DNA of 64,000 bases from an uncultured Gemmatimonadales bacterium (GCA_963851265.1 CAWKNZ010000002.1:1280001-1344000); one strand, 5' to 3'; positions 3,499-62,131 are shown, counted from the stretch's first letter. Program-made: numbers and translations. Notes: a model not told the origin generated them from the sequence alone.

Positions 3499-3541
3499 GC
3501 CGAATCCTGGCACGTTAGGCACCCGGACCGGGTGCGCGAAC

Positions 3542-3584
3542 AACGCGAGAGGCCCCCGCCGTGATGGCGGGGGCCTCTCGCGTT
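3542..3584. terminator. Bidirectional intrinsic terminator between convergent rpmA and amidohydrolase genes
   Basis: 19-bp perfect stem AACGCGAGAGGCCCCCGCC-gtgat-GGCGGGGGCCTCTCGCGTT. Confidence 0.8.
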
Positions 3585-3611
3585 CTGTCGCGCGCTGGTC
3601 AGCGACGCCGA

Positions 3612-4913
3612 TTACGGACGCGTGTAGCCCGGCGGCAACGTCCGGTACCGCCGCGCCAACTCGTCCTGCCGCGAATCCCCCGTGACCTCGCGCCCGCGGA
3701 TGAAGACGTGCTCCGCACGGCTCGCGAACTCGAACGGATCGCCCGTCCACACCACGACGTCGGCGTCGCGCCCGGGCGCGAGCGAGCCCACGCGGTCGGC
3801 CACGCCGAACAGCTCGGCGGGCGTGAGCGTGACGGCACGCAAGGCGGCGTCGTAGCGCATCCCGTACGCGACGGCATTACCCGCCTCGAAGCGCACGTTG
3901 CGTACGTTGAACGCCTCCTCGTCCCCCTCGCCCGCGTTCCCGATGATCGCCACGGGGACGCCCGCCGCCGCGAGCAGCCCCGCGTTCTCCTGCCGCTGGC
4001 CTAACGCGGCGAAGCTCGACGGGATGTTGTTCATCGCACCGGTCACGACCGGGACGCGGTCAGCCGCGAGTTGCTCCGCCACCTGCCACGCCTCGGCGCC
4101 GCCTAGGATCATGAGGCGAAAGCCGAATTCGCGGCGAAGCCGGAGCGCGGCGTCGATGTCGGACGCGCGATCCGCCGCGATCAACATCGGCAGTCGCCCG
4201 GTGAGCACCGGCTGGAGCGCTTCGAGGTCTGCCCGTGACGCGGTGAAGGTGCGCGTCTGGTTCCGCTCGAATGCCGCACGCGACCGCCCGAACGTGCGCG
4301 CATCGCTGAGCAACTCGCGCAGGCGACCGATGAGTTCACCCCGGGCCCCCAGTCCGGCCGCGCGCGCGTCGCCGACCTCCGCGACCATCGCAGCCGAGGC
4401 CCGAAGCACCGCGTCCGCCGCGCTCCGGCCGTCGAGGTGGACGACAGCCGCCTGACCGGCCACGAGTCCGCCGGCGGGGAGGACCACGGCGGTAGTGACG
4501 CCGTCGTTCCGGGCCGGCGGGATCAACGCCGACGCGGGGTTGAAACCCTCCCACACCGCGAACGCGGCGGCTACCGCGTCTCGCCCGCGCGCGCTCGCGT
4601 CTCGCGTGTCCCGCACGGCTCCGATCTCGACGACGCCCAGCTCCGTCGCCGCGTTGACGAACCCGGGGGTGACCACGCGCCCGGTCGCGTCGATGCGGCG
4701 CGCGTCCGCGGGGATCGGCACGTCCGCGCCCACCGCGAGCACGCGCCCGTTGCGCAGCAGGACCGTGCCGCGCTCGATGCGCGGTCCCGAGACCGGGTAG
4801 ACGGTTCCGCCGACGATCGCGATCGTCTGAGCCGACGCCTCGCGCAGCGTGGCCCCGATGAGAACGGCTACTGCGACGGCGCGCGCGAGTTTTCGGCTGC
4901 GAAAGCGGCGCAT
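3612..4913 (-). CDS. Secreted amidohydrolase-family protein, apparently lacking metal ligands
   Basis: Signal peptide ending ASA-Q, IDATGRVVTPGFVN and GSLAPGRDADVVVW. The ATG at 4913 overlaps the stop of the upstream paralog. Confidence 0.85.
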   Translation of the reverse strand: MRRFRSRKLARAVAVAVLIGATLREASAQTIAIVGGTVYPVSGPRIERGTVLLRNGRVLAVGADVPIPADARRIDATGRVVTPGFVNAATELGVVEIGAVRDTRDASARGRDAVAAAFAVWEGFNPASALIPPARNDGVTTAVVLPAGGLVAGQAAVVHLDGRSAADAVLRASAAMVAEVGDARAAGLGARGELIGRLRELLSDARTFGRSRAAFERNQTRTFTASRADLEALQPVLTGRLPMLIAADRASDIDAALRLRREFGFRLMILGGAEAWQVAEQLAADRVPVVTGAMNNIPSSFAALGQRQENAGLLAAAGVPVAIIGNAGEGDEEAFNVRNVRFEAGNAVAYGMRYDAALRAVTLTPAELFGVADRVGSLAPGRDADVVVWTGDPFEFASRAEHVFIRGREVTGDSRQDELARRYRTLPPGYTRP

Positions 4914-6523
4914 CAGCGCGGTCCTCCGGACGATGGGGCACCCGACGGCGCGCCCGTGGTTGGAGCGGGTGGCGAAGACGAGGCGGCCACGGTCGAGGGA
5001 GGGGCGACGAAGCCGAGTTCGAAATCGGTGCGCCACTGGCGGCGCGGGTCGGTGCGGTCGTAGAGCATGGCCCCGTCCACCCAGACCTTCTCGACTCGGG
5101 TGTAGACCGAGAACGGGTTGCCCGACCAGAGTACGACGTCGGCGTTCTTCCCGGGCTCAAGCGACCCGATCCGGTCGTCGAGGCCTAACGCCCACGCCGC
5201 GTTGATCGTGAGCCAGCGCACCGCCTGATCCTCGGTCACCTCGATGCCGACCGCACGCCCCGCGGCCATCGCCTTCGCGGCTTCCTGGTTGAGTCGCTGC
5301 GATCCGGACGGGTCGTCCGAGTGCACGATCGCGCGCGCCCCGGCCTGCTGGACGAGCGCGAGATTCGCCCGCACGCCGTCGATCGCTTCCATCTTGAATC
5401 CGCCCCAGTCGGCCCACAGCGCGCCGCCGACCGAATCGCGAGCGAGCAGGTCGGCGACCTTGTACGCCTCCACACCGTGGTGAAACGCGCGGATGTGATA
5501 GCCGAACTCGCGTGCGATGTCGAGCATCTGCGCCATCTCGTCGGCCCGGTAGCAGTGGTTGTGCACGAGGATGTTGCCGCGCAGCACCTCCGCGAGCGTT
5601 TCGAGCCCGAGGTCGCGCGCGGGGGGGTCGGACTGGCGGTTGCCGGCGAGCCACGCGTCCCAACGCCGGCGATACGCTTCGGCCTGGATCCACGCCGTCC
5701 GGTACCCGGCCACGTTCCCCATCCGGGTACTCGGTCCGCGATTGGCGTACACGCGCTTCGGATTCTCGCCGCACGCCATCTTCAGCCCGTACTTCGCGCC
5801 GGGGAACTTCATCCCTTGCACCGTGCGCGACGGGACCACCTTGAGCACGACGCTCCGCCCCCCGATCAGATTCGCCGAGCCCGGGAGCACCTGAAGCGTC
5901 GTCACGCCGCCGGCGAGGTTGCGCGGGAACTGCGGGTCCTGAGGCCACACCGAGTGCTCGGCCCAGACATAGGGCGTCGTCGGGTTGGTCGCTTCGTTGC
6001 CGTCCGACAGCGCGTCGCCGCCCGGCGCGGCGTACACCCCCAGGTGCGAGTGCACGTCGATGATCCCCGGCGTGACGTACTTCCCGGCGCCGTCGATCAC
6101 GGTCGCTCCCGCGGGCGCGTCGATGGTCGCGCCGATGCTCACGATCTTTCCGTCCCGGAGCAGGATGGCGCCGTTGCGGATCGACGGTCCCGCGGCGGTC
6201 ATCAGCGTGACGTTGCGGATGAGCGTCGGCGTCGACGGAGCCGGCCGGTACGTGCTCGGGAACGGGTCGGCGAGCGGTAGCGAGAGCCCACCGCTGCCCG
6301 GCGCGTTGCGACCCGTGCTGTTGGGCGGCGTCGACGCCGCATTTCCGAGCGGCCCGGTGGTCCCGCCCGCGGTGGTGGGGCCGGGCGGCGTTCGCGGTCC
6401 GGGCGCGGGCGCACTTGGGGTCTGTGCGCGGACGATGCGCGCCGCAGGAACGAGCGTCGCGAGCGCGGCGACGCCGGCGGTACGCACCAGCGCCGTACGC
6501 GTCGCATTCTGGCGAGGTGACAT
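4913..6523 (-). CDS. Secreted amidohydrolase-family protein (metal-dependent)
   Basis: TPGIIDVHSHLG, LKMACGENPK, HCYRAD, HGVEAYK, HSDD and GSLEPGKNADVVLW. Signal peptide followed by a P/T/G-rich linker. Confidence 0.9.
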   Translation of the reverse strand: MSPRQNATRTALVRTAGVAALATLVPAARIVRAQTPSAPAPGPRTPPGPTTAGGTTGPLGNAASTPPNSTGRNAPGSGGLSLPLADPFPSTYRPAPSTPTLIRNVTLMTAAGPSIRNGAILLRDGKIVSIGATIDAPAGATVIDGAGKYVTPGIIDVHSHLGVYAAPGGDALSDGNEATNPTTPYVWAEHSVWPQDPQFPRNLAGGVTTLQVLPGSANLIGGRSVVLKVVPSRTVQGMKFPGAKYGLKMACGENPKRVYANRGPSTRMGNVAGYRTAWIQAEAYRRRWDAWLAGNRQSDPPARDLGLETLAEVLRGNILVHNHCYRADEMAQMLDIAREFGYHIRAFHHGVEAYKVADLLARDSVGGALWADWGGFKMEAIDGVRANLALVQQAGARAIVHSDDPSGSQRLNQEAAKAMAAGRAVGIEVTEDQAVRWLTINAAWALGLDDRIGSLEPGKNADVVLWSGNPFSVYTRVEKVWVDGAMLYDRTDPRRQWRTDFELGFVAPPSTVAASSSPPAPTTGAPSGAPSSGGPR

Positions 6524-9533: not shown

Positions 9534-10766
9534 ATGGCGAATTACAAGTACGCGCAGATCCCCGCAGCCGGCGAGCGCATCGATTACAGCGCCGACGTAC
9601 TTCGTGTCCCCGACCGTCCGATCGTGCCGTACATCGAGGGCGACGGCACCGGCCCGGACATCTGGCGCGCGTCGGTTCGCGTATTCGACGCCGCGGTCGC
9701 GCGCGCGTACGGCGGGCAGCGGCAGATCGCCTGGATGGAAGTCTTCGCGGGCGAAAAGGCCGTCGCGACGACCGGCGAGTGGCTGCCCGACGAGACGGTC
9801 GAGGCGCTGCGCGAGTTTCGCGTCTCGATCAAGGGCCCGCTCACGACGCCCGTCGGCGGCGGCATCCGCTCGCTCAACGTGGCGCTCCGTCAGATCCTCG
9901 ACCTCTACGCGTGCATCCGGCCGGTGCGCTACTTCGAGGGCGTCGGCGCGCCCGTCAAGGAGCCGCAGAAGCTGGACATCGTGATCTTCCGCGAAAACAC
10001 GGAAGACGTCTACTCGGGGATCGAGTTCCGCGCCGGGACGCCCGAGGCCGACCAGCTGGCGGGCTACCTGGCCGACCACTTCGGCAAGCGCGTGCGCGAG
10101 GGCTCGGCGATCGGGATCAAGCCGATGAGCGAGTTCGGCTCGAAGCGTCTCGTGCGCATGGCGCTCGACTACGCCGTGAAGAACGGCCGTCCGTCGGTGA
10201 CGCTCGTGCACAAGGGGAACATCATGAAGTTCACCGAAGGCGCGTTCCGCGACTGGGGGTACGAGGTCGCCCGCGACAGCTTCGGCGGCACGCTCATCGA
10301 CAAGGGGCCGTGGACGCAGGTGCCTAACGGGCCCGTGGTCAAGGACGCGATCGCGGACGCGATGTTCCAGCAGTTGCTGCTGCGCCCCGACGAGTACTCG
10401 GTCGTCGCGACGCCGAACCTGAACGGCGACTACATCTCGGACGCGGCGGCCGCTCAGGTGGGCGGGCTCGGCATCGCGCCTGGCGGCAACATCGGCGACG
10501 GGCTCGCCGTGTTCGAAGCGACGCACGGCACCGCACCGAAGTACACCAACCTCGACAAGGTCAACCCGGGCTCGGTCATCCTGTCGGGCGTGATGATGCT
10601 GCAGTACATGGGCTGGAACGAGGCGGCGGACCTGATCGTACGCGGGATGGAGCGTGCGATCGGCGCGAAGACGGTCACCTACGACCTCGCGCGCCAGATG
10701 GACGGGGCGACGGAGGTGTCGTGCTCGGGATTCGGCGAGGCGATCGTCGCCGCGATGGGCGCCTGA
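9534..10766 (+). CDS. icd: NADP-dependent isocitrate dehydrogenase
   Basis: [41 protein letters not shown] and [10 protein letters not shown]. Confidence 0.97.
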
Positions 10767-10767
10767 G

Positions 10768-12237
10768 ATGACGGTCGCTCTCACCCTCGACACGAGCGTC
10801 GACACGCTGGCGACGCCGCTGCTGGTCGTCGCACTCGCCGCCGGCGAGCCGCTGCCCGTCGCGCTCGGCGGACTCGATGCCACACTCGACGGCGCGTTAG
10901 GCCGCTCCATTTCGCGGCGCGACTTCCGCGGGGCGCGCGACGAGACGCTGCATCTCGCCGGGCGCGAGTCCGGCGTAGAGCGGGTGCTCCTGGTCGGCCT
11001 CGGCAAGGCAGACGACCGCCGCAGCGCGCTGCGGCGCGCGGGGGCGGTCGCCGCGCGCGCCGCCGCGAAGCTCGGCACGGGCGCGCTCGCGTTCTACGCG
11101 GCCGACCTCGACGCGGACGGCGCGGAGCAGGCAGCCGTCGGGATCACGCTCGGTGCGTGGCAGTATGAGGATCTGAAGACGGCGCCGCCCGAAGGCGAGC
11201 GTCGAGCCCCACTCGCGCGCGCATCGGTGGTGGCGGGAGTCGAGGCGCAGCCCGGGATGGCCGCGGCCGAGGCGATCGGCGCCGGTTACGATCTGGCCCG
11301 CCGCCTCGCGATGATGCCCGGGAACGTCTGCACGCCGGACACCTTCGTCCAGACGGCGCACGACATCGCGGGCCGCTTCGGCCTCTCGGTCACGGTGCTC
11401 GGTCGCGCCGAGATGGAAGCCGAGGGGATGGGGTCGTTCCTCTCGGTCGCGCAGGGCGTGCCCGAAGATCCGAAGCTGGTAGCGATCGAGTACCGCCGTG
11501 GCGGCGACGCGAAGCCGCTCGTGCTGGTCGGCAAGGGGCTGTGCTTCGATTCCGGGGGCATCAACCTCAAGCCCGGCGCAGGGATGTTCAACATGAAGTT
11601 CGACATGTGCGGCGCGGCCGGCGTGATGGGCGCGATGGAGGCGATCGCACGTCTCGGACTTCCCGTGAACGTGATTGGCGTCGTCGGATCGACGACGAAC
11701 ATGCCGAGCGGCACGTCGATGAAGCCGGGCGACGTGGTCCGCAGCATGTCGGGCAAGACGATCGAGAACCACAATACCGACGCCGAAGGACGCCTCGTCC
11801 TCTGTGATCTGCTGCACTGGATCAAGAAGTATGAGCCGGCCGCCGTGATCGATGCGGCGACGCTCACCGGCGCGATCGTGATCGCCCTCGGCCACGCCGC
11901 CGTCGGCGTGTTCGGGAGCGACGCCGCGCTCACGCAGGAAGTGCTCGGCGCGGGCCAGCGGGCGGGCGAGAAGGGGTGGGAGTTGCCGATGTTCGACGAG
12001 TACAAGGAACAGCTGAAGAGCGACGTCGCCGACCTGAAGAACGTCGGCGGCCCGGCCGCGGGGTCGATCACGGCGGCGTGGTTCCTCCGCGAGTTCGTCG
12101 ACGGCGCATACCCGTGGGTGCACCTCGACGTCGCCGGGACGGCGTACTCCGAGACGGACCTCGGCTGGATCCCGAAGGGACCGACCGGGACGCCCACCGG
12201 CACGTTCGTCGAGTTCGTTCGGGCGAGGGCGCGCTGA
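10768..12237 (+). CDS. pepA: Leucyl aminopeptidase (M17)
   Basis: VGKGLCFDSGG, MKFDMCGAA, NTDAEGRL and WVHLDVAG. Confidence 0.95.
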   Translation: MTVALTLDTSVDTLATPLLVVALAAGEPLPVALGGLDATLDGALGRSISRRDFRGARDETLHLAGRESGVERVLLVGLGKADDRRSALRRAGAVAARAAAKLGTGALAFYAADLDADGAEQAAVGITLGAWQYEDLKTAPPEGERRAPLARASVVAGVEAQPGMAAAEAIGAGYDLARRLAMMPGNVCTPDTFVQTAHDIAGRFGLSVTVLGRAEMEAEGMGSFLSVAQGVPEDPKLVAIEYRRGGDAKPLVLVGKGLCFDSGGINLKPGAGMFNMKFDMCGAAGVMGAMEAIARLGLPVNVIGVVGSTTNMPSGTSMKPGDVVRSMSGKTIENHNTDAEGRLVLCDLLHWIKKYEPAAVIDAATLTGAIVIALGHAAVGVFGSDAALTQEVLGAGQRAGEKGWELPMFDEYKEQLKSDVADLKNVGGPAAGSITAAWFLREFVDGAYPWVHLDVAGTAYSETDLGWIPKGPTGTPTGTFVEFVRARAR

Positions 12238-12275: not shown

Positions 12276-14312
12276 GTGGCGCGCGCGGCGGTCACCTGGC
12301 TCGCCCGCGTCGCGGCCGCGCTCGCGATTCTGGCCGGCGCCGCCGCCGCGCGGCGGCTCGGCGCGCAGAGCACGCCGGCGCCGCCGACGCCTAACGTTCC
12401 GGCGCCGATCGGCATGCCGGACCGGGTGCGCGCGCGCGCGGACTCCGCGCGCCGCGCGGCGGGTGACACTCTGCGGCGCCGGCGCGACACGACCGGCGTG
12501 GCCGCGCCGGCCGCGGCCGACACGTCGCGCCGTACGGCCGCCGACTCCATCCGTGGCACCCCCGACTCGCTCAAGACGCCCCGGGTACGGCGCGACAGCA
12601 TCAAGGCGCCGCTCGCGCGCGCCGAGATGCCCACACAGGGCGTGATCGCCGGGCCCGCGTACCGGTTCCGCGGCGATACGATCCTCGCGACCGGGTCGCT
12701 GACCGTTGCCGACTTGCTCGAACGCGTGCCGGGCGTCGTCGTCTACCGGAGTGGGTACATCGCGTCCGCGCAGACCGCGTCCTACCTGGGGGACTTCCGC
12801 CGGGTCCGCGTGTTCCGCGACGGCGTGGAGTTGGACCCCGTCGATCCGCGCAACGGCGGCGTGCTCGACCTCACGGACGTCCAGCTCTGGCTCGCCGAAG
12901 AGGTCACGATCGAGCCGACCGCGGGCGAGGTGCGGGTGTTCATTCGGACGCGCGCGCCGAACAACACCACTCCGCAGACGCGCGTCGACGTGTATACGGG
13001 CGACCAGGAGACCAACCTGTATCGCGCGTTCTACGGGAAGCGGTTCACGAACGGCGGCTTGATCCAGGTGAACCTGCAGGAGTACGGGACCGGGCGCGCC
13101 AACCGCACCGGCGGCGGCGGCGACGCCACCAACGCGCTCATCCGACTCGGCTGGGCGCGTCGCAATCGCAGCATCGATCTGACGTTCACGCGGATCGACC
13201 GCCGTCGGAACCGGGGCAACGATTACTTCAACCTGGATTCGGTGCTCGTCGGCTTCCTCGGCCGGCGCGACGAAGCGTACCTGCGGGCCGCGGTCGGTGA
13301 CCCGGAGCAGGGCGTGTGGGCGCAGGCGATCGCGAACGTGCTGCGCTTCCGGCTCGAAAACCCGCAGCGCGCGCCGCGTGCGGCGACCGACACGACGACG
13401 CCCGTGTACCCCGACTCGAACGTCTACCGCAATCAGTATGTGCTCACCGGCGGGTTCACTCGCTGGGGCGTGCGGTTCACCGCTACGGATCGCTACCGTG
13501 TCGGAAGTGGGCACGCGTACCACGCGCCGTCGTTGCGCGCCGCGTATGAGATCAACCGGCTGTCGCTGTCCGCGCTCGCGGAACGGGTCGGCACGGACTC
13601 GACCAAGCGGCTTGATGCGTCGGCGCGCTTCGCGCTCCTGCCGCGTGTCGCCGTGTTGGGCGGCGTGAGTAGCACGACCGGCGACTCGTCCGTCGGCGGC
13701 ACGCGTCGCGTCGTACGCGCGCAGATCGCCGCGCGGGTGTTGCACGACGCGTGGGTCTCGGTCGGCCGCGTGATCCGCGACGGCGGCATCTTCGCGCCGC
13801 CGCGCCTGTACGCGGTCCCGGAGGGCACGCCGGTCGCGGCGAGCGAAGGGAGGGCGTCGGGGTTCATCGGCGAGTTCCGCGGCGCCGTCCTGCCGTTCAT
13901 CACCGCGAACTTCGGTGGGACGGCGTGGAACGACGCGGGGCTGTATCGGCCGCGGTATCAGGGCAGGGGCGAGCTGCGCTTTGCGAGCGACTTCCTGCGG
14001 CGTTTCCCGACGGGCGAGTTCGGGCTCGCCTTCGCGCTGTCCGACGAGTACCGGAGCCGCACGGAGTTCCCGCTCGCGCCGAGCCCGAGCATCGCGGGGA
14101 CGCCCACCACCGGCACCCCCGGGACCGTCACGCTCGCCAGTGCCGGTGCGAGCAACGTCATCGGCGCGCAGCTCGAGATCCGCATCCAGCACGCGGTCGT
14201 GAGCTACCAGATTCGGAACCTCGGATCCCGGTTCTACCAGGAGGTGCCTGGCGTACAACTCCCGCGCGGCGCGACGCAGTTGTATGGCGTGCGATGGGAG
14301 TTCGGGAACTGA
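12276..14312 (+). CDS. Outer-membrane protein with TonB-plug-like domain and putative beta-barrel (start uncertain)
   Basis: Signal peptide (..GA-Q), low-complexity DS/DT repeats, plug-like TVADLLERVPGV...RVFRDGVELDP, alternating beta-strands and C-terminal YGVRWEFGN. Confidence 0.7.
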   Translation: MARAAVTWLARVAAALAILAGAAAARRLGAQSTPAPPTPNVPAPIGMPDRVRARADSARRAAGDTLRRRRDTTGVAAPAAADTSRRTAADSIRGTPDSLKTPRVRRDSIKAPLARAEMPTQGVIAGPAYRFRGDTILATGSLTVADLLERVPGVVVYRSGYIASAQTASYLGDFRRVRVFRDGVELDPVDPRNGGVLDLTDVQLWLAEEVTIEPTAGEVRVFIRTRAPNNTTPQTRVDVYTGDQETNLYRAFYGKRFTNGGLIQVNLQEYGTGRANRTGGGGDATNALIRLGWARRNRSIDLTFTRIDRRRNRGNDYFNLDSVLVGFLGRRDEAYLRAAVGDPEQGVWAQAIANVLRFRLENPQRAPRAATDTTTPVYPDSNVYRNQYVLTGGFTRWGVRFTATDRYRVGSGHAYHAPSLRAAYEINRLSLSALAERVGTDSTKRLDASARFALLPRVAVLGGVSSTTGDSSVGGTRRVVRAQIAARVLHDAWVSVGRVIRDGGIFAPPRLYAVPEGTPVAASEGRASGFIGEFRGAVLPFITANFGGTAWNDAGLYRPRYQGRGELRFASDFLRRFPTGEFGLAFALSDEYRSRTEFPLAPSPSIAGTPTTGTPGTVTLASAGASNVIGAQLEIRIQHAVVSYQIRNLGSRFYQEVPGVQLPRGATQLYGVRWEFGN

Positions 14313-20016: not shown

Positions 20017-20019
20017 CGC

Positions 20020-23557: not shown

Positions 23558-24454
23558 ATGCCCGACCGCGTGCCCGCCGATCGCGTCGTCCCGCCCGCCC
23601 GCCGCCCGACGCGGCTCGTGCTCCTCGGGCACCCCGTGGCGCACTCGCTGTCGCCGACGTTCCAGAACGCGGCGCTCGACGCCGCGTCGATCCCGCTCCG
23701 CTACGAGATCCTCGACGTGCCGCCGCGAGACCTCGCTCGCACGGTCGATCGGCTGCGCGCCTCCGGCGCCGCGGGCAACGCCACGGTGCCGCACAAGGCG
23801 GGCGCGCTCGCCGTCTGCGACCGCGTCACGGACGTCGCGGCCACGCTCGGCGCGGTCAACACCTTCTGGTGCGCCGATGACGGCGCGCTCGTCGGCGACA
23901 ATACCGACGCGGCCGGTGCCGTCGCCGCGCTCTCGACCGTCCTGCGGCGCGCCGGCGAACGCCCGCCCGCACGCGTCGCGGTGCTCGGCGCGGGCGGCGC
24001 GGCCGCGGCCCTCATCGCGGCGGTCGGAGTCGTGCTTCCGCGCGCGGCGGTCGGCGTGTGGGCGCGCGGCGCCGAGCGCGCCGCCGCGTTGGTCGCGCGG
24101 TTCGACGAGCGCGCGACGGTCGCGCCGACGCTCGACGCCGCGTTAGGCGACGCACAGGTCGTCGTGAACGCGACCCCCCTCGGACTCGCGGCCGGCGATG
24201 TCTTCCCGTGCCCGATCGAAGCGCTGGCACCGGGCGCGATCGTGCTGGACCTCGTGTACGGCGCCGCCGAGACTGCGTGGGTCCGTGCGGCGCGCGCCGC
24301 CGGGTACGACGCCAGCGATGGGCTGGTGATGCTGGTCGAGCAGGGGGCTGCCGCGTTCACGCGCTGGTTCGGGCGCTCGCCCGACCGCGCGCGCATGTGG
24401 GCCGCCGTACAGCTGCGAACGGGCCGCACGCCCCCGAACCCGCCCGCCGCGTGA
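23558..24454 (+). CDS. aroE: Shikimate dehydrogenase
   Basis: GHPVAHSLSP, NATVPHK, GAVNT, DNTD, LGAGGAA and DGLVMLVEQG. Confidence 0.93.
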   Translation: MPDRVPADRVVPPARRPTRLVLLGHPVAHSLSPTFQNAALDAASIPLRYEILDVPPRDLARTVDRLRASGAAGNATVPHKAGALAVCDRVTDVAATLGAVNTFWCADDGALVGDNTDAAGAVAALSTVLRRAGERPPARVAVLGAGGAAAALIAAVGVVLPRAAVGVWARGAERAAALVARFDERATVAPTLDAALGDAQVVVNATPLGLAAGDVFPCPIEALAPGAIVLDLVYGAAETAWVRAARAAGYDASDGLVMLVEQGAAAFTRWFGRSPDRARMWAAVQLRTGRTPPNPPAA

Positions 24455-32531: not shown

Positions 32532-34481
<1,950 letters not shown>

Positions 34482-40353: not shown

Positions 40354-40374
40354 CTTCCGTTAGGCACACGCACC

Positions 40375-41757
<1,383 letters not shown>

Positions 41758-51509: not shown

Positions 51510-51571
51510 GCACCCTCCCCGCACACCTCGCCGCCGCGTCCGTCCCGGGCGGTCCCTCCCACACGCAACGC

Positions 51572-52969: not shown

Positions 52970-52990
52970 ACTGAGCGTCCGTCGACCGGC

Positions 52991-55555
52991 ATGACGCGCG
53001 GCCGCTGGCTCGCGGCGGCGCTCGCCGCGGCGGCCGCGCTCGTGCTCGCGCGCGCGCTCGCCGTGGCGTTCGTCGAGTACCGGTGGTTCGCGGCGTTCGG
53101 GCCGGCGTGGGTCGACGTGTGGCGCGCGCGGGCGGTCGACCTCGCGGTCGTCCGTTCGCTCGCCGCGCTGGTCGCCGGCGTCTTCCTGTACCTGAACCTG
53201 CTCGGCGTCGCGAGCACGATCGACGCGGTGGCCGTGTCGAGGCGGCTCGGCGGGATCGAAATCGCCGAGACGGTGCCCGCCGGGCGACTGCGCGGCGTGT
53301 TCGCGCTCGCGAGCGTCGCGTTCGGCCTCGCGATGGCGCTGCCGATCTCCGACTGGGTCTCGGTCGACGCGCTGCTCACCGGCCGAATCTTCGGCGAGAT
53401 CGAGCCATACACCGGGCGCGACCTCGCGTTCTTCGTGTACTGGCTGCCGTTCGAGAACGGGATGTACGCCTGGTCGCTCGTCGCGGTGGCGTTCGTCACC
53501 GGCGCGGTGGTCGCGCTGTACGCCCTCACCCCCGGTCTGCGTTGGGCGCGCGGCCGGGTTCGCGCGACGGTCCGCGTGCGCCGCCACCTCGCGCTGTTCG
53601 GCGTCGCGACCCTGCTGCTGCTCGCGTGGGGGCACCGCCTCGACGCGTACGCCTTGCTCACCGACGGGTCGGGCGTGAACGGCGCGTTCGCCGGCACCGA
53701 CGAGCTCGCGCTGCTCCCCACGCGCTTCGGCCTCGCGATCGTGTCGGCGCTCGCGGCGGTCGTCGTCCTCCGCGCGGGCTGGGCGGGGCAGGCGCGGCTC
53801 GCGTTCTGGGCCGTCAGCGCCGTCGTCGCGGTCACGATTCTCGGTCGGAGCGTGGCCGGTCCGGTCGGCGCGGCGCTCATCGCGCCGGAGCGCCTCGACC
53901 GCGCGAACAAGGCCGCCGCGGAGAACCGCGCCCTGTACACGCGGCGCGCGTTCGCGTCCAACCAGGTGCGCGACAGCGCGTCGCCGTTAGGCGCTCTTCC
54001 GTCGGCGAGGGACGTCGTCCTGAACGCCGCCGCGTGGGACGCGGGCGCGCTCGCGCGCGCGTCGGCGCTGTCGCCGGACCCGCGCGCGCCGCACACGGTC
54101 GTCGGCTGGCAGCCGTTCGGGGATTCGATCGCGGCAGTCGTGGCCGGGCCGCGCGGCGGCGCCGAGCCGGGCGCGATCGGAGCGCTCACGGCGGGCGCCG
54201 CCGACCGCACCGTGGCTCGCGGTGGCTGGCGCGCGATCGTCGTCGACCCGCGGCTTCCCGGACCGGTAGGGGTCGCGCCGCGTGCGGCACGCGGACCGTC
54301 CGCGCCGGTCGACGTCGCCGGCGTGATCTACCCGGGCGCGGGCGAGGCTGCCGTCGTGCGCGATCCGACGGGCCAGATCGTCGGCGACTCCTTCCGCACG
54401 TGGATCGTTCGACTCGCGGCCGCGCTCGCCGCGCGCGACCTCCGCCTGTTGCGTGCGGACGACACCGAACGCGGCGACGTGCGCCTCGTTCGGTGGCGCG
54501 ATCCGCGCGCCCGCGTGCAGGCGTTACTGCCCTTTTTCGCGGTCGGGCGTGACGCGTCGCCGATCGTCGTCGGCGACAGCCTCTGGTGGGCCGTCCCGGT
54601 GCTCGCGACGACCGCGGAATACCCGCTGTCGGCGCACCTCGGCGCCGACGCCGCCGATGGCGACGACATCGCGAGCTTGCGTCACGCGGGCACGGCCGTC
54701 GTGAACGCGGCCACGGGAAACGTGCGCCTCGTCGCGCCGCCCGAACCCGACGCGGACATCCGCGGCTGGTACGCGCGGTTTCCGCGCATCGCGACACGTG
54801 CCGACGCGCTCGACTCCACGCTTGTGGGCGCACTGCCGGTCCCCTACGAGGCCGCGCTCGCGCAGGCGCGGGTGTATGCGGAGTACGGACCGCGAGGGAC
54901 GCACCCGCTACCAGTACGGCGCGTCCAGCTCGCCGAGCTCGTCGACTCGGCTCCGGCGAGCCCGGCCGGCGCCGCGTTCGTGCTCCGCGTAGGCTCCGGC
55001 CCGCACGTCGTCGCGTCGGCGTTCCCGGTGATCACGGGGACGGACCGGATTGCGGGCGCCGTCGTCGCGAGTGGAGGCCCCGTGCCGCGCACGGCGTTCC
55101 TTGCCGCGCCCGAACCCGGCCCGCGTTGGGCCGACGTGCTCGACTCGACGTCGACGACCGTGGCCGATGGCGGTGGCCCGCGCACGCGCGCGCCGGGCAG
55201 CTTTGACGGCGGCCTGCATGCCGTTCCGAGCGCGGGCGGGCTGATCTTCACGCGTGCACACTACGCCGCCGCGGCGGACACCCGTCCCTCGCTCACCGGC
55301 GTCACCGCCGTCCTGAGCGGTGGCGGCCCAGTCGAACGCGTGCTGCACGGCCCAACGCTCGTGGCGCTCTTCGACACGGCGGGCACGGCGAGTCGCGGCC
55401 CCGTCGCGCTTCCCGGCTCGCTCACCGCCGAGCAGCGCGTTGTGGCGGCGCGGAGTTTCTACGACGATGCGCGGCGCGCGCTCGAGCGCGGCGATTGGGG
55501 CGCGTTCGGCCACGCGCTCGACGCGATCGGCCGGATGTTGGGATCGGCGCCGTAG
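52991..55555 (+). CDS. UPF0182 family membrane protein (divergent)
   Basis: Seven N-terminal TM-like segments, EPYTGRDLAFFVYWLP, YTRRAF and C-terminal ALERGDWGAFG. Confidence 0.75.
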   Translation: MTRGRWLAAALAAAAALVLARALAVAFVEYRWFAAFGPAWVDVWRARAVDLAVVRSLAALVAGVFLYLNLLGVASTIDAVAVSRRLGGIEIAETVPAGRLRGVFALASVAFGLAMALPISDWVSVDALLTGRIFGEIEPYTGRDLAFFVYWLPFENGMYAWSLVAVAFVTGAVVALYALTPGLRWARGRVRATVRVRRHLALFGVATLLLLAWGHRLDAYALLTDGSGVNGAFAGTDELALLPTRFGLAIVSALAAVVVLRAGWAGQARLAFWAVSAVVAVTILGRSVAGPVGAALIAPERLDRANKAAAENRALYTRRAFASNQVRDSASPLGALPSARDVVLNAAAWDAGALARASALSPDPRAPHTVVGWQPFGDSIAAVVAGPRGGAEPGAIGALTAGAADRTVARGGWRAIVVDPRLPGPVGVAPRAARGPSAPVDVAGVIYPGAGEAAVVRDPTGQIVGDSFRTWIVRLAAALAARDLRLLRADDTERGDVRLVRWRDPRARVQALLPFFAVGRDASPIVVGDSLWWAVPVLATTAEYPLSAHLGADAADGDDIASLRHAGTAVVNAATGNVRLVAPPEPDADIRGWYARFPRIATRADALDSTLVGALPVPYEAALAQARVYAEYGPRGTHPLPVRRVQLAELVDSAPASPAGAAFVLRVGSGPHVVASAFPVITGTDRIAGAVVASGGPVPRTAFLAAPEPGPRWADVLDSTSTTVADGGGPRTRAPGSFDGGLHAVPSAGGLIFTRAHYAAAADTRPSLTGVTAVLSGGGPVERVLHGPTLVALFDTAGTASRGPVALPGSLTAEQRVVAARSFYDDARRALERGDWGAFGHALDAIGRMLGSAP

Positions 55556-55717
55556 CGACGACGCGTCGCGCGGGCCGGTCGCCTTGCTCGGCTGTGTTCG
55601 CAGGGGTAACCTTGGCCATCTTTGCGCGCCGCTGCTGCGGCGCGACCGATACGGCGCTCCGACGGGGCGCCGCGCGCGATCGACGCGTGCGGCGCCCCTC
55701 ACCCATCGAACGCTTCT

Positions 55718-56884: not shown

Positions 56885-57753
56885 GCGTCTTCGTCGATCG
56901 GAACACGCGCCTCGTCATCCAGGGCATCACGGGCCGTGACGGCTCGTTCCACGCCCGCCAGATGATCGAGTACGGCACGAACGTCGTGGCCGGCGTGACG
57001 CCCGGAAAGGGCGGACAGCGGTTCGAGAACAAGGTCCCGGTCTTCAACACGGTCGAGGACGCCGTACGCGAGACGGGCGCGAACACCAGCGTGATCTACG
57101 TGCCGCCGCCGTTCGCCGCGGATGCGATGATGGAGGCGGCCTCCGCCGGTGTGAAGCTCGTCGTCTGCATCACCGAGGGCGTGCCGGTCGTCGACATGCT
57201 GCGCGTGCGGCCGTACGTGATCGCGCAGGGCGCGCGTTTGGTGGGACCGAACTGCCCGGGGCTGATCACGCCGGGCGAGGCGAAGGTCGGCATCATCCCG
57301 GGCAACATCTGCACGCCCGGTAACGTGGGCGTGGTGAGCCGATCCGGCACGCTCACCTACGAGGTCGTGTACCACCTCACGCGCGCCGGGCTCGGCCAGA
57401 GCACGTGCGTCGGCATCGGCGGCGACCCGATCAACGGGACCGGATTCATCGACGCCCTGCAGGCGTTCGAGAACGATCCCGCCACCAAGGTCGTCGCGAT
57501 GATGGGCGAGATCGGCGGTACGGACGAGCAGGACGCGGCCACCTTCATCGCGGAGCACATGCGGAAGCCGGTCGTCGGGTTCATCGCGGGGCAGACCGCG
57601 CCGCCGGGCCGCCGGATGGGGCACGCCGGCGCGATCATCTCGGGGTCTTCGGGCACCGCGGCGGAGAAGATCGAGGCGTTCACGGCCGCGGGCATGGGCG
57701 TCGCGCGGCGGCCGATCGACTTCGTCGACCTCGTACGCGAGCGGATGGCCTAA
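56881..57753 (+). CDS. sucD: Succinyl-CoA synthetase alpha subunit
   Basis: [20 protein letters not shown] and RMGHAGA. Confidence 0.97.
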
Positions 57754-57758
57754 CGCGT

Positions 57759-60000: not shown

Positions 60001-60001
60001 G

Positions 60002-61033
60002 TTGGCGCGCGTCGCGGTGGACGCGATGGGGGGCGACTTCGCTCCCCGCGCCCCGGTCGCGGGCGCACTGCTTGCCCTGGCCGAGCTGTCGGCCGACCAC
60101 ACGATCCAACTCGTGGGGCAGACGGAGGTCGTCCGCTCGGCGCTCGACGAATTGCTCGCCGGCGAGTACGCGCGGCTCGCGGCGCATCGCGCGCGCGTGA
60201 GCATCGTAGAGGCGCCCGATGTGGTCACGATGTCGGACAAGCCGACGTCAGTGATCCGCGGGAAGCGCGAAAGCAGCATGGTCGTCGGACTGCGCCGCCA
60301 GGCCGAGGGCCACGCAGACGCATTCGTGTCGGCGGGCAACACGGGTGCGCAGATGGCCGCGTCGTGGTTCATCCTCAAGCTGCACGAGGGCGTGACGCGC
60401 CCGGCGATCGGCACGATCCTGCCGACGACGAACAAACCGCTCGTGATGCTCGACTCCGGCGCGAACGTCGACTGCTCGGCCGAAGAACTGGTCCAGTTCG
60501 CTCGGCTCGGCGCCGTGTACGCCGAGGACGTGCTCGGCCGCCCGGAGCCGACGGTCGGCCTGCTTTCGATCGGCGAGGAGCCGGAGAAGGGCAACGCCGT
60601 CGTGATCGAGGCGCACCAGGCCCTGCGCGCGACGTCGGAGTTCACGTTCCTGGGGAACGTCGAGGGGCGCGACATCCCGACGGGCACCTGCGACCGCGGC
60701 CAAATCGACGTCGTCGTGTGTGACGGCTTCGTCGGCAACGTCGTGCTCAAGTTCTACGAGGCGCTCGCGCCGACGCTCATGGGCGTCTTCGCGCGGGCGT
60801 TAGGCGCGGAGCGAGAGACGCTGGCGCAGGCGTTCAAGCAGCTGGACTACTCGGAGTACGGCGGCGCGCCGCTGCTCGGTGTCAAGGGCGTGAGCATCAT
60901 CTCGCACGGCAAGAGTTCGCCGCGCGCGATCATGAACGCGGTCAAGGTCGCCGTGCAGATGGTCGACGCGCACATGAGCGAGCACGTCGGCAAGCGCCTG
61001 GCCGAGGCCACCGCGGTCCGCGAGCCGACGTAG
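60002..61033 (+). CDS. plsX: Phosphate acyltransferase PlsX
   Basis: VAVDAMGGDFAP, SAGNTGA, DSGAN and CDGFVGN. TTG start. Confidence 0.96.
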   Translation: MARVAVDAMGGDFAPRAPVAGALLALAELSADHTIQLVGQTEVVRSALDELLAGEYARLAAHRARVSIVEAPDVVTMSDKPTSVIRGKRESSMVVGLRRQAEGHADAFVSAGNTGAQMAASWFILKLHEGVTRPAIGTILPTTNKPLVMLDSGANVDCSAEELVQFARLGAVYAEDVLGRPEPTVGLLSIGEEPEKGNAVVIEAHQALRATSEFTFLGNVEGRDIPTGTCDRGQIDVVVCDGFVGNVVLKFYEALAPTLMGVFARALGAERETLAQAFKQLDYSEYGGAPLLGVKGVSIISHGKSSPRAIMNAVKVAVQMVDAHMSEHVGKRLAEATAVREPT

Positions 61034-61117
61034 CGCGCGCCCCGCCCGCTCGACCTCGGGGGCGCGCCGGCCGACGCCGCGCGCCCCCGCCCTTCTTCCC
61101 CTCGCCCGTCCGCCTCA

Positions 61118-62131
61118 GTGAAGCGCCCCATCGCGTACATCGCCGGCACCGGCCGCGGCGTGCCCGCTTCCGTGATGACGAATCACGACTTCGCGGCGCG
61201 CGGCATCGAGACCACCCACGAGTGGGTCGTCGAGCGCACCGGGATCCACGAACGCCGTATCGCCGGGGACGACATCACGACGGCGGCGATGGCCGCCGAC
61301 GCGGGGCGCGCGGCGATGGCAAAGGCCGGCGTGCAGGCGGGCGAACTCGACGCGATCGTGCTGAGCACCGCGACGCCGGACCGGCTGCTGCCGTCGACCG
61401 CCGTGGACGTGCAGGCCGCGCTCGGCGCCACGCGGGCGGCCGCGTTCGACATCTCGGCGGCCTGCTCCGGGTGGCTCTACGGTCTCACGGTCGCCGAGGG
61501 GATGATCGCGACCGGCGCCGCCGAGACCGTGCTGGTGATCGGCGCCGAGAAGATGAGCGCGATCATCGACTGGACCGACCGCGCGACCTGCGTGCTGTTC
61601 GGCGACGGGGCCGGCGCCGTGGTGCTCAAGCGGCACAAGCCGAGCGTCGGCGCGGGCCTGCGGTCGCCGCGCGGGATCCTGTCGTCGTTCATGCGCTCCG
61701 ACGGCACGCTGGCGGAGCTGTTGTGGCGCCCGGGCGGTGGCGCGCGCGTGCCGTTCACCGACGCCGTCCTCTCGGAGCGCTCGCACTACGTCCGGATGGC
61801 GGGGCGCGAAGTGTTCAAACACGCGGTGCGCTCCATGAGCGAGGCGGCCGACCGCGCGCTCGACGCCGCCCGCCTCACGGGGAGCGACATCGACCTCATG
61901 ATCCCGCACCAGGCGAACGTGCGCATCATCGAGGCGACGGCGAAGCACGCGAACGTCTCGATGGACAAGGTCTACGTCAACGTGCACCGGTACGGAAACA
62001 CGTCCTCGGCGTCCATCGGCATCGCGCTCGACGAGGCGATCGAGTGCGGGCGCGTGCGCGAGGGCTCGACGGTGCTGCTCGTCGCGTTCGGCGCCGGCCT
62101 AACGTGGGCGTCGATGGTCGTCCGCTTCTGA
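61118..62131 (+). CDS. fabH: Beta-ketoacyl-ACP synthase III
   Basis: AACSG, FGDGAGA, PHQAN and YGNTSSAS. Confidence 0.96.
   Translation: MKRPIAYIAGTGRGVPASVMTNHDFAARGIETTHEWVVERTGIHERRIAGDDITTAAMAADAGRAAMAKAGVQAGELDAIVLSTATPDRLLPSTAVDVQAALGATRAAAFDISAACSGWLYGLTVAEGMIATGAAETVLVIGAEKMSAIIDWTDRATCVLFGDGAGAVVLKRHKPSVGAGLRSPRGILSSFMRSDGTLAELLWRPGGGARVPFTDAVLSERSHYVRMAGREVFKHAVRSMSEAADRALDAARLTGSDIDLMIPHQANVRIIEATAKHANVSMDKVYVNVHRYGNTSSASIGIALDEAIECGRVREGSTVLLVAFGAGLTWASMVVRF

What the first reader, a model, noticed from the sequence alone, without database searches (positions are those of the whole stretch)
3513..62104. Non-palindromic octamer CGTTAGGC is dispersed on both strands: candidate DNA-uptake-sequence-like or chromosome-architecture motif
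Seen: 18 exact copies (10 as CGTTAGGC at 3513, 10895, 24141, 27324, 32244, 40358, 43322, 51666, 53985, 60798; 8 as GCCTAACG at 3999, 5183, 10322, 12389, 20011, 29635, 57748, 62097). Near-copies are GTTAGGC at 18855, 33068 and 41340, TTAGGC at 20905, and CGTTAGAC/GTCTAACG at 15924, 37725 and 44739. That is about one exact copy per 3.5 kb, in coding, stop-codon and intergenic positions. A hand zero-order estimate at 70% GC gives about 2 expected copies, probably fewer because TTA/TAA are otherwise scarce here. Known: non-palindromic 9-10-mers that are orientation-unbiased and embedded in core genes are the signature of Neisseria DUS and Pasteurellaceae USS. Chi and KOPS are strand-skewed, and HIP1 is palindromic. 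Inference: this lineage may carry an uncharacterised self-recognition motif, such as an uptake sequence, a nucleoid- or segregation-protein site, or a selected methylation site.
Basis: partly seen in the sequence, partly recalled or inferred. Interest (0 to 1): 0.88.

Follow-up and report, generated by a model that had tools for sequence, protein, structure and literature searches.

The report
Genome-wide DNA word matching integron core
This soil bacterium and about a third of its family have written one short DNA word, spelled like the recombination core of their integron gene cassettes, thousands of times into ordinary genes against their own codon habits, which implies that an unknown protein reads the DNA itself.

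Summary
All 18 exact CGTTAGGC copies are at the stated places, against 1.14 expected. The genome has 1396 copies against 50-83 expected, the top 8-mer under Markov orders 1-3. A synonymous-codon shuffle gives 40 in genes against 1028 seen.

The signal is in the DNA, not the protein or RNA:
- It uses every stop-free reading frame, stop codons and spacers.
- Spacer copies show no bias to the neighbouring genes' direction.
- No replication-strand skew was found.

Orthologous copies persist five to ten times better than other rare codons, and new copies arise by double substitutions. Of 151 family genomes, 46 are word-rich and 90 word-poor, with contrasts inside genera.

The full profile Y-GTTAGGC-V equals the R box of this order's integron attC sites.

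No reader was found. IntI, ComEC, PilM, RecC, a large N6-methylase and pilins do not track the word. Vsr and C5-methylase were not found in this genome.

The best reading is a transmission drive of the DUS/USS kind, tuned to the integron core (about 0.4). This scan flagged the same word before, in this and other genomes.

The parts
3513..3520 (+). exact 8-mer in a spacer between convergent genes (3184-3498 + and 3612-4913 -)
3999..4006 (-). exact 8-mer, sense in an amidohydrolase gene (3612-4913, -): GCG TTA GGC = Ala-Leu-Gly
5183..5190 (-). exact 8-mer, sense in an amidohydrolase gene (4913-6487, -): GCG TTA GGC
10322..10329 (-). exact 8-mer, antisense in an isocitrate/isopropylmalate dehydrogenase gene (9534-10766, +): GTG CCT AAC GGG = Val-Pro-Asn-Gly
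10895..10902 (+). exact 8-mer, sense in an M17 aminopeptidase gene (10768-12237): GCG TTA GGC
12389..12396 (-). exact 8-mer, antisense in gene 12276-14312 (+): ACG CCT AAC GTT
18855..18861 (+). 7-mer core (AGTTAGGC), sense in the DnaB helicase gene (18604-20016): GAG TTA GGC
20011..20018 (-). exact 8-mer overlapping the TAA stop of the DnaB gene (GCC TAA CG on +), just upstream of a RadA-like gene (20020-21423)
24141..24148 (+). exact 8-mer, sense in a shikimate dehydrogenase gene (23558-24454): GCG TTA GGC
27324..27331 (+). exact 8-mer, sense in the phosphoglycerate kinase gene (26324-27523): ACG TTA GGC
29635..29642 (-). exact 8-mer, antisense in the carbamoyl-phosphate synthase small-chain gene (28848-29963, +): GGC CTA ACG = Gly-Leu-Thr
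32244..32251 (+). exact 8-mer, sense in gene 31703-32476: ACG TTA GGC
33068..33074 (+). 7-mer core (TGTTAGGC), sense in a succinate dehydrogenase/fumarate reductase flavoprotein gene (32532-34481): CTG TTA GGC
40358..40365 (+). exact 8-mer in the 21-base spacer between gene 39790-40353 and the NuoF-like gene (40375-41757)
41340..41346 (+). 7-mer core (TGTTAGGC), sense in the NuoF-like gene: ATG TTA GGC
43322..43329 (+). exact 8-mer, sense in the NuoG-like gene (41791-43398): GCG TTA GGC
51666..51673 (+). exact 8-mer, sense in a phosphohexomutase gene (51572-52969): ACG TTA GGC
53985..53992 (+). exact 8-mer, sense in a UPF0182 gene (52991-55555): CCG TTA GGC
57748..57755 (-). exact 8-mer overlapping the TAA stop of a succinyl-CoA ligase alpha-like gene (56881-57753, +)
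60798..60805 (+). exact 8-mer, sense in the PlsX gene (60002-61033): GCG TTA GGC
62097..62104 (-). exact 8-mer, antisense in the FabH gene (61118-62131, +): GGC CTA ACG

Best explanation
Y-GTTAGGC-V is a signal in the DNA itself. An unidentified sequence-specific protein reads it, and the word accumulates by biased transmission (a molecular drive), not because each copy is useful to the gene that holds it.

The most likely step is one that acts on incoming or exchanged DNA before it recombines: uptake during natural transformation, as for the DUS of Neisseriaceae and the USS of Pasteurellaceae, or an equivalent choice or protection step. Alleles that carry the word are passed on more often, so the word spreads into every place where the protein sequence tolerates it.

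Shown: the word is DNA-level, is actively gained and kept, is lineage-patchy, and equals the attC R box in profile. Inferred: that a transmission bias causes it, and that the biased step is uptake.
For: 1. Size of the excess. There are 1396 copies against 50-83 expected, which makes it the top 8-mer. The excess is 18-25-fold over a synonymous-codon shuffle. From my own knowledge, only the uptake sequences and HIP1 reach this size.

2. The signal is DNA-level.
- The word uses all four stop-free frames. Occupancy of amino-acid-compatible sites is 988 of 10716 (sense TTA-GGC), 197 of 1434 (antisense CCT-AAC), 71 of 1848 and 24 of 3433, so there is no sense preference once opportunity is counted.
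- 988 of 1272 TTA codons lie in the word.
- 185 copies overlap TAA or TAG stops and 295 are intergenic.
- In spacers between co-directional genes the split is 85 sense to 82 antisense.

3. No replication-strand skew was found.
- Intergenic copies split 34 to 26 (p=0.37).
- Occupancy in majority-strand genes is 203 of 2673 against 45 of 661 in minority-strand genes.
- Spacing is random (CV 1.07).

4. Active maintenance. TTA inside the word stays TTA in 40 of 60 (G001) and 32 of 45 (G004) aligned Leu codons. Other rare codons stay in about 0-15% of cases, for example CTA 6 of 91 and TTG 52 of 466 in G001.

5. Directional gain. From an inferred ancestral GCTCGGC, the commonest derived word in G001 is GTTAGGC (11 of 76), a double change. 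It is 4 of 37 in G004.

6. Sharp specificity. One-off variants are not enriched, except T at -1 (12.9x) and A3 to G (2.5x).

7. Lineage-patchy trait. 46 of 151 family genomes are rich, 15 intermediate and 90 poor. In one genus, G055 (3896 copies) and G145 (4141) stand against G108 (66).

8. The uptake machinery is present in this genome: ComEC, PilM, a PilS/PilR-like pair and four prepilin-type genes. Of the 10 genomes without a ComEC hit, 9 are word-poor. The tenth is a 910-contig assembly whose two sampled congeners have ComEC.

9. Match to the attC R box.
- In 39 attC sites of cassette arrays in word-poor sister-family genomes, R' is C-GTTAGGC in 37 of 39. R'' read backwards is T-GTTAGGC in 37 of 39. 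The +7 base is G 22, A 8, C 7, T 2.
- The 295 intergenic genomic copies have -1 as C 215, T 48, G 18, A 14, and +7 as G 150, A 77, C 54, T 14.
- The two +7 distributions do not differ (p=0.87), and the genomic one is far from background (p=1.6e-20).
Against: - No reader was found. ComEC (141 of 151), PilM (144 of 151) and pilin paralogues occur in rich and poor genomes alike, so nothing ties the uptake machinery specifically to the word.
- There are no inverted-repeat pairs at terminators, as DUS often forms. Only 8 pairs of 1762 copies lie 40-160 bases apart in the R''-then-R' orientation, and several of them are real attC sites.
- One-off variants are not enriched, whereas (from my own knowledge) USS one-off sites are common.
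- No alternative 'dialect' word was found in the four word-poor genomes sampled: G006 and G057 (200 kb each), G048 (100 kb) and G108 (80 kb).
- Natural transformation has not been reported for this phylum in the papers I could search.
- A 45-kb core region around gidA-parAB-mnmE has no copy at all. A uniform drive does not predict this.
Confidence: 0.4

Rival explanations
1. The word is a binding or recombination half-site for an integron-type tyrosine recombinase (IntI or a Xer-like relative). The chromosome is studded with R boxes that serve integron biology directly, for example as high-affinity landing sites for cassettes (attG-like) or as sites that titrate the integrase.
For: - The word and its flanks equal the attC R box of this order.
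- Integron integrases are common in the family: 90 of 151 genomes have a hit over the curated cut-off.
- G000 has its own attC-like pairs on C10 and C6.
- A preprint (10.1101/2022.09.11.507474, passages read) shows that integrases insert cassettes into genomes at GWT sites. It reports a helpful right-hand CRGM motif at positions 6-9, which fits the C at position 6 and the purine preference at +7 here.
Against: - An uninterrupted IntI over the cut-off is found in 29 of 46 rich, 8 of 15 intermediate and 51 of 90 poor genomes (Fisher p=0.58 for rich against poor).
- G000's own intI is split by about 2 kb.
- G001 has the fastest recent gain of the three compared and is 97% complete in 5 contigs, yet it has only a fragment with a stop.
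- Cassette insertion and excision restore the target, so I see no way for the reaction to write new words (inference).
- Insertion into the word inside housekeeping genes would be harmful.
- Selection on thousands of single sites is weak.
Confidence: 0.2
2. A HIP1-like case: the word accumulates through an unknown modification- or repair-linked bias, for example an orphan methylase with a site-directed repair activity, with no role in DNA exchange.
For: - HIP1 of cyanobacteria (from my own knowledge) shows that hyper-abundant, hyper-conserved words can exist without a known uptake role.
- The sharp specificity for the exact 7-mer is restriction-enzyme-like.
- G000 encodes a 1141-residue Eco57I/MmeI-type N6-adenine methylase next to an SNF2 helicase.
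Against: - That methylase is conserved at 51-76% identity in rich (G001, G012, G055) and poor (G108, G006) genomes alike.
- Vsr and C5-cytosine methylase were not found in G000, which is 94% complete.
- Known short-patch repair drives towards G:C, whereas the centre of this word is TTA in a 73% GC genome (inference).
- The word is not palindromic.
Confidence: 0.12
3. A Chi-like signal: the word tells a helicase-nuclease (AddAB, AdnAB or another) to stop degrading and start recombination. This protects self DNA and incoming DNA of the same lineage.
For: - It is a short non-palindromic word that is over-represented in core genes.
- Protection of incoming linear DNA would also give a transmission bias and would need both orientations (inference).
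Against: - No leading-strand skew was found.
- RecC was found in 19 of 151 genomes only (5 rich, 14 poor) and not in G000 or the three other genomes of its genus in that search.
- The excess is far above that of known Chi sites, which are a few-fold over-represented (from my own knowledge).
- AddAB and AdnAB were not tested.
Confidence: 0.08
4. A nucleoid, segregation or other chromosome-architecture binding site, kept by selection on each copy.
For: - The density is one copy per 2.6-3.3 kb with random spacing.
- G000 has a 45-kb word-free zone around parAB, and dnaA lies in a 15-kb gap.
Against: - The parAB zone is not word-free in G012, is only weakly depleted in G004, and is about three-fold depleted in G001.
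- Density varies about 1000-fold among species of one family and within genera, which is odd for a core architectural factor.
- Per-site selection strong enough to override codon usage thousands of times is unlikely (inference).
Confidence: 0.07
5. A translation- or RNA-level effect: a favoured TTA-GGC codon pair or an RNA motif.
For: 988 of 1280 genic copies are sense xxG-TTA-GGC.
Against: - The antisense frame CCT-AAC has the higher occupancy (13.7% against 9.2%).
- 295 copies are intergenic with no orientation bias (85 to 82), and 185 overlap stop codons.
- The flank preferences are the same in every class.
Confidence: 0.01

Closest known systems
DNA uptake sequences: DUS of Neisseriaceae (read by the minor pilin ComP) and USS of Pasteurellaceae (features of both from my own knowledge)
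   Same: - A short non-palindromic word at about one copy per 1-3 kb.
- Strand-balanced, with no replication skew.
- Written into core genes through whatever frames the protein tolerates, and denser outside genes.
- Shared by related species.
- ComEC and a type IV pilus are present in the genome.
   Different: - No uptake bias or receptor is shown.
- A different phylum (Gemmatimonadota).
- Shorter: a 7-mer core with one flank position on each side.
- No terminator-type inverted pairs.
- One-off variants are not enriched.
- The trait is present or absent among species of one genus.
- The word equals an integron recombination core.
R box (core site, GTTRRRY) of integron attC and attI sites; attG genomic insertion sites (preprint 10.1101/2022.09.11.507474, passages read)
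   Same: - The exact spelling GTTAGGC.
- The same -1 preference: C in R', T in R'' read backwards.
- The same +7 preference (G > A about equal to C, far above T) as in 39 attC sites of this order.
   Different: - More than 99% of the genomic copies have no partner R''/L''/L' arms, so they cannot fold as attC.
- They sit inside housekeeping genes.
- Word density does not follow IntI presence.
HIP1 (GCGATCGC) of cyanobacteria (from my own knowledge)
   Same: - A hyper-abundant word inside genes.
- Conserved at orthologous places beyond the synonymous background.
   Different: - HIP1 is palindromic and linked to methylases.
- This word is asymmetric, and no C5-methylase or Vsr was found here.
Chi and KOPS/architecture-imparting sequences (from my own knowledge)
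   Same: A short asymmetric word that is over-represented on the chromosome.
   Different: - Those are strongly skewed to the leading strand and only a few-fold enriched.
- Here no skew was found, the excess is 17-28-fold, and RecC was not found in this genome.

Membership tests
DNA uptake sequences (DUS/USS) | Hyper-abundant short non-palindromic word, genome-wide | tested here: met
   1396 copies against 50-83 expected, the top 8-mer under Markov orders 1-3. The excess is 25-fold over a codon shuffle.
DNA uptake sequences (DUS/USS) | Both orientations equally frequent, with no replication-strand skew | tested here: met
   708 forward and 688 reverse. Intergenic copies split 34 to 26, and occupancy is the same in majority- and minority-strand genes. 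The leading strand was inferred only from local gene-strand majority.
DNA uptake sequences (DUS/USS) | Placed in genes wherever the protein tolerates it, and denser outside genes | tested here: met
   All four stop-free frames are used in proportion to opportunity and codon cost. 482 of 1762 copies lie outside the called coding sequence proper (stop overlaps, spacers, contig edges), which is about 13% of the genome.
DNA uptake sequences (DUS/USS) | Inverted pairs forming terminators (a DUS feature) | tested here: not met
   Few close inverted pairs exist. Eight R''-then-R' pairs lie 40-160 bases apart, and several of them are attC sites.
DNA uptake sequences (DUS/USS) | Competence machinery present | tested here: met
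   G000 has ComEC, PilM and prepilins. They are equally present in word-poor genomes, so this does not discriminate.
DNA uptake sequences (DUS/USS) | Preferential uptake of DNA bearing the word, and a receptor that binds it | not testable with these tools
   This needs uptake assays in a cultured strain. No candidate receptor was found.
Integron attC / attI recombination sites | R box GTTRRRY with the order's own flank preferences | tested here: met
   39 attC sites compared with 295 intergenic copies.
Integron attC / attI recombination sites | Paired R''/L''...L'/R' arms that fold (attC), or L+R boxes next to intI (attI) | tested here: not met
   The flanks of 1761 copies show only codon periodicity. 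Only 8 paired sites were found in the genome.
Integron attC / attI recombination sites | Dependence on an integron integrase | tested here: not met
   Uninterrupted IntI in 29 of 46 rich against 51 of 90 poor genomes, p=0.58.
Chi sites | Leading-strand skew and a RecBCD/AddAB-type reader | tested here: not met
   No skew was found. RecC was not found in G000 and was found in 19 of 151 family genomes without relation to the word. AddAB was not tested.
HIP1-type palindromes | Palindromic word linked to a cognate methylase | tested here: not met
   The word is asymmetric. No C5-methylase or Vsr hit was found in G000. The large N6-methylase is conserved in rich and poor genomes. Methylation itself was not testable.

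The most novel reading that the evidence does not exclude
The self-tag of these bacteria is the integron core itself. Their DNA-import step (or another step before recombination) is tuned to the conserved end of integron gene cassettes. Cassette DNA from the soil gene pool and DNA of word-bearing relatives are therefore taken in preferentially. The chromosome has been overwritten with the word as a by-product of that bias.

This would join natural transformation and integron gene capture into one system.
Probability: 0.15. Interest if true: 0.92.

Novelty: new variant of a known kind. Interest (0 to 1): 0.8.

Why it matters
Only two bacterial families are known to carry uptake-type self-tags (from my own knowledge), and how such words arise is still debated.

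- **A third, independent case.** It lies in an abundant but little-studied soil phylum.
- **A natural experiment.** The trait is switched on in about a third of the species and off in close relatives.
- **A possible link to integrons.** The word is spelled exactly like the integron recombination core, flanks included. This points to a link between DNA exchange and gene-cassette capture that I did not find described.
- **A practical consequence.** The word distorts codon usage: 78% of all TTA codons in this genome lie in it. Ignoring it can mislead codon, horizontal-transfer and integron-site predictions in these genomes.
- **An experimental system.** A cultured strain, Gemmatirosa kalamazoonensis KBS708, carries the word, so experiments are possible.

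Tried and rejected
- **Maximal-order Markov model.** The 8-mer is not enriched over its own 7-mers (1396 against 1390), because the sub-words carry the signal. This is uninformative, not contrary.
- **Apparent runs of + strand hits.** The lists for G004, G054, G107 and G144 looked like strong skew. I read them as a listing order: the list seems to fill with forward hits of a contig first. G000 itself shows no such runs.
- **Local strand imbalance on C2 (800-1600 kb).** It follows gene orientation, not replication.
No association with word density.
- **The large Eco57I/MmeI-type methylase.** It is conserved in rich and poor genomes.
- **The pilin next to polA.** Paralogues occur in all five genomes tested.
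- **ComEC and PilM.** Both are near-universal in the family.
- **RecC.** It is rare and unrelated to the word.
- **Vsr and C5-methylase.** Neither was found in G000.
- **Alternative words ('dialects') in word-poor genomes.** None was found in the stretches sampled from G006, G057, G048 and G108. The GGGTTCA words of G108 are tandem heptads in a few inverted-repeat elements.
- **Sequencing runs.** Only short contigs of three soil metagenome runs were on offer, with no raw long reads. Neither methylation nor polymorphism at the word could be read from them.
- **The 45-kb word-free zone as foreign DNA.** It holds core genes that are shared with the genus at 74-82% identity.
- **Literature.**
  - The 8-mer occurs in 478 papers. 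I saw the listing of the top 20 only, and by their titles none concerns a genomic word.
  - 'Gemmatimonad' with 'uptake sequence' gave 0 papers.
  - 'Gemmatimonadetes' with 'natural transformation' gave 21 papers. Of the 8 listed, I read passages of one (PMC7305173), which gives background only.
- **Accession look-up.** One accession recalled from memory failed. The RefSeq form of it worked.

Full report
**Observation**

Dinucleotide-preserving shuffles expect 1.14 (largest 4), and 0 of 100 shuffles reach 18. The listed near-copies are there too, except that TTAGGC at 20905 was not checked separately. One-mismatch copies as a class are not enriched in the window: 56 matches at up to 1 mismatch against 47.9 expected.

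The window is G000:C2:1280001-1344000 of a 4.60-Mb, 12-contig, 73% GC genome.

**Genome-wide excess**

- The genome holds 1396 copies, at 0.27-0.41 per kb on every contig, split 708 forward and 688 reverse.
- Markov models of order 1, 2 and 3 expect 82.5, 50.2 and 58.3, and the word is the most over-represented 8-mer under each.
- The maximal-order model is blind to it, because the 7-mers carry the signal.
- The core is GTTAGGC (1762 copies). Position -1 is C 79% and T 14%. Position +7 is G 54%, A 22%, C 19% and T 5%.
- A codon-aware null shuffles synonymous codons within each called gene and keeps the inflated TTA count. It gives 40.4 +/- 5.3 8-mers against 1028 seen in genes.

**The signal is in the DNA, not in the protein or RNA**

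I used my own crude gene calls (3612 genes). Genic copies and their occupancy of amino-acid-compatible sites are:

| Frame | Copies | Compatible sites | Occupancy |
|---|---|---|---|
| Sense xxG-TTA-GGC | 988 | 10716 | 9.2% |
| Antisense xxG-CCT-AAC | 197 | 1434 | 13.7% |
| Antisense xGC-CTA-AC | 71 | 1848 | 3.8% |
| Sense GTT-AGG-C | 24 | 3433 | 0.7% |

- The two remaining frames contain a stop and are used only as real stop codons: 71 TAG and 114 TAA.
- The sense bias therefore reflects how common Leu-Gly is, not a preference for the coding strand.
- 988 of 1272 TTA codons lie in the word. TTA-GGC (995) is used for Leu-Gly more often than CTG-GGC (720).
- 295 copies are intergenic. In spacers between co-directional genes 85 are sense and 82 antisense.
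- Density is highest between convergent genes (63 in 61 kb) and lowest between divergent genes (65 in 182 kb).
- The -1 and +7 preferences are the same in sense, antisense and intergenic copies.
- In the window the host genes are core ones: dnaB, pgk, carA, sdhA-like, nuoF/G-like, plsX, fabH and others.

**No Chi- or KOPS-type skew**

- Local strand imbalance on contig C2 follows gene orientation.
- Where local gene-strand bias is at least 0.3, intergenic copies split 34 to 26 (p=0.37). Occupancy is the same in majority-strand and minority-strand genes: 203 of 2673 against 45 of 661 for TTA-GGC, and 42 of 378 against 8 of 103 for CCT-AAC.
- Spacing is exponential (CV 1.07).
- RecC was not found in G000. 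It occurs in 19 of 151 family genomes (5 rich, 14 poor).
- The leading strand was inferred only from gene-strand majority, so the skew test should be repeated on closed genomes.

**Evolution of the copies**

About 370 kb around the window is syntenic with the same-genus genome G001, and about 267 kb with G004. Identity is 82-83.5%, and the three genomes are roughly equidistant.

- Of G000's copies aligned without gaps, 46 of 96 are kept in G001 and 39 of 67 in G004.
- TTA inside the word stays TTA in 40 of 60 and 32 of 45 aligned Leu codons.
- Other rare codons stay in about 0-15% of cases (in G001: CTA 6 of 91, CTT 44 of 334, TTG 52 of 466, GTT 29 of 327). TTA outside the word stays in 6 of 40 and 5 of 31.
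- Across 253,531 three-way aligned columns, counts by presence in G000/G001/G004 are 111: 22, 110: 7, 101: 15, 011: 23, 100: 19, 010: 69 and 001: 39.
- Where two genomes share GCTCGGC, the commonest derived word in G001 is GTTAGGC (11 of 76). That is a double change, and it is more frequent than any single change. It is 4 of 37 in G004 and 0 of 66 in G000.
- The word is thus both created directionally and held in place. The strength of this differs between sister species, and G000 is the weakest, which fits its lower density.
- Some shared copies may be parallel gains, since occupancy is high.
- One-off variants are not enriched, except T at -1 (12.9x) and A3 to G (2.5x).

**Distribution in the family**

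I classed genomes by 8-mer copies per Mb: rich at 100 or more, intermediate at 15-100, poor below 15.

- Of 151 genomes of the family (earlier notes and name it Gemmatimonadaceae), 46 are rich, 15 intermediate and 90 poor. Density ranges from about 1 to 1327 per Mb.
- These tallies include three unpublished genomes: G011 and G041 (poor) and G087 (intermediate).
- The trait differs within genera: G055 has 3896 copies and G145 4141, against 66 in G108.
- Four word-poor genomes show no other hyper-abundant word in the stretches sampled. Their top z is at most 15, against 47-90 for the word in G001, G004 and G012.
- In G012 position 6 is looser (C 70%, T 15%).
- The first 50 kb of plasmid 1 of the cultured Gemmatirosa kalamazoonensis KBS708 has 39 copies of the 7-mer, against 2 of a reversed control word, with the same flank preferences.

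**The integron link**

This lead also came from earlier notes. I tested it here.

- Word-poor genomes of a sister family carry clusters of co-oriented copies every 500-600 bases.
- These clusters are integron cassette arrays. One lies next to intI fragments (G015:C80).
- In 39 attC sites, R' is C-GTTAGGC in 37. R'' read backwards is T-GTTAGGC in 37. The +7 base is G 22, A 8, C 7, T 2.
- The genome-wide word has the same profile. In the 295 intergenic copies -1 is C 215, T 48, G 18, A 14, and +7 is G 150, A 77, C 54, T 14.
- The two +7 distributions do not differ (p=0.87). The two arms of an attC site are base-paired partners, so that sample is effectively 39. The genomic distribution is far from background (p=1.6e-20).
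- A chance match of a 7-mer plus both flank preferences is very unlikely. The arrays come from genomes without the genome-wide word. So I take the attC profile as primary and the genomic word as a copy of it.
- The copies are not attC sites. The flanks of 1761 copies show only codon periodicity, and only 8 paired sites exist in G000.
- IntI does not track the word. An uninterrupted IntI over the cut-off is found in 29 of 46 rich, 8 of 15 intermediate and 51 of 90 poor genomes (p=0.58).
- G000's own intI is split. G001, the fastest gainer, has only a fragment with a stop.
- Passages of a preprint (10.1101/2022.09.11.507474) report that integrases insert cassettes at genomic GWT sites, helped by a CRGM motif at positions 6-9. 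That fits C6 and the purine at +7.
- Passages of PMC12614218 report that natural transformation feeds cassette recombination in Vibrio cholerae.

**Search for a reader**

| Candidate | Result |
|---|---|
| ComEC | 141 of 151. Of the 10 without a hit, 9 are poor and 1 is a 910-contig rich assembly |
| PilM | 144 of 151 |
| Pilin next to polA | Paralogues in all five genomes tested |
| 1141-residue Eco57I/MmeI-type N6-methylase | Conserved in rich and poor genomes |
| Vsr, C5-methylase | Not found in G000 |

**Reading**

An excess of this size, against codon usage, strand-balanced, actively gained and kept, and switched on or off between close species, fits a transmission drive better than site-by-site selection. 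From my own knowledge, the only understood drives of this kind are the uptake sequences. I therefore rank an uptake-type (or other pre-recombination) bias first, at about 0.4, with its specificity set to the integron R box.

The rivals are:
- direct integrase- or Xer-type function (0.2);
- a HIP1-like modification or repair bias (0.12);
- a Chi-like signal for an untested nuclease (0.08);
- an architectural site (0.07).

An RNA or codon-pair effect is contradicted by the data.

**Novelty**

I found no description in print (with the limits stated under Tried and rejected). This scan has flagged the same word repeatedly, in this genome and in at least a dozen others, with the same uptake-like reading.

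- the opportunity-corrected frame analysis;
- the codon-shuffle null;
- the gain and retention measurements;
- the family-wide tests of IntI, ComEC, PilM and RecC;
- the nine-position match to attC;
- the absence of dialects in four word-poor genomes;
- the word-free parAB zone.

Noticed in passing
G000:C1:182876-227962 (outside the window): A 45-kb stretch has no copy of the 7-mer. Gaps of 30 kb or more are expected 0.018 times. It holds about 40 ordinary genes with roughly 150 Leu-Gly dipeptides, among them gidA/mnmG, parA, parB and mnmE. Those are origin-proximal core genes, shared with the genus at 74-82% identity. The orthologous zone is about three-fold depleted in G001, weakly depleted in G004 and not depleted in G012.
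   Followed up: partly
G000:C1:12048-12530: dnaA lies inside another word-free gap of 15 kb (C1:2107-17073, GC 0.678), about 180 kb from parAB on the same contig.
   Followed up: no
G000:C6:3005-6044: The genome's own integron integrase gene is split. Model positions 2-265 lie at 5244-6044 and positions 260-313 at 3005-3166, so about 2 kb is inserted between them. An attC-like pair lies at C6:1592-1702, and four more lie on C10 between 188.9 and 203.8 kb.
   Followed up: no
G015:C95:1-24000, G015:C80:1-7300, G013:C3:1-8000 (loci L007-L010): Long integron cassette arrays sit in word-poor genomes of a sister family. Their attC sites are 83-130 bases long and very uniform, and GC is about 0.61. 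The C80 array abuts intI fragments on the same strand.
   Followed up: partly
G108:C168 around 7.5, 14.1 and 58.5 kb (loci L079-L082): Tandem heptads of GGGTTCA form the two arms of short inverted-repeat elements in spacers. This is a small repeated element, not a dispersed word.
   Followed up: partly
G000:C7:579717-585511 (locus L088): A 1141-residue Eco57I/MmeI-type N6-adenine methylase is followed by an SNF2-family helicase. The methylase is conserved at 51-76% identity across five family genomes, which is unusual for a restriction or defence-type gene.
   Followed up: partly
G000:C1:165885-169481 (locus L089): A 135-residue prepilin-type gene sits directly downstream of polA, away from the main pilus cluster (PilS/PilR-like pair, pilin and PilM on C5:22.6-30.7 kb).
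   Followed up: partly
window 20011-20020: The TAA stop of the DnaB gene lies inside the word, and a RadA-like gene starts just downstream.
   Followed up: no
window 44001-56000: AT skew is strongly negative here (-0.12 to -0.21) compared with the rest of the window. The cause was not examined.
   Followed up: no
ComEC hits of G076, G124 and G158 (the genus called g70): The open frames around the ComEC domain are only 417-418 residues, against about 750-800 in most genomes, at internal contig positions. All three genomes are word-poor.
   Followed up: no
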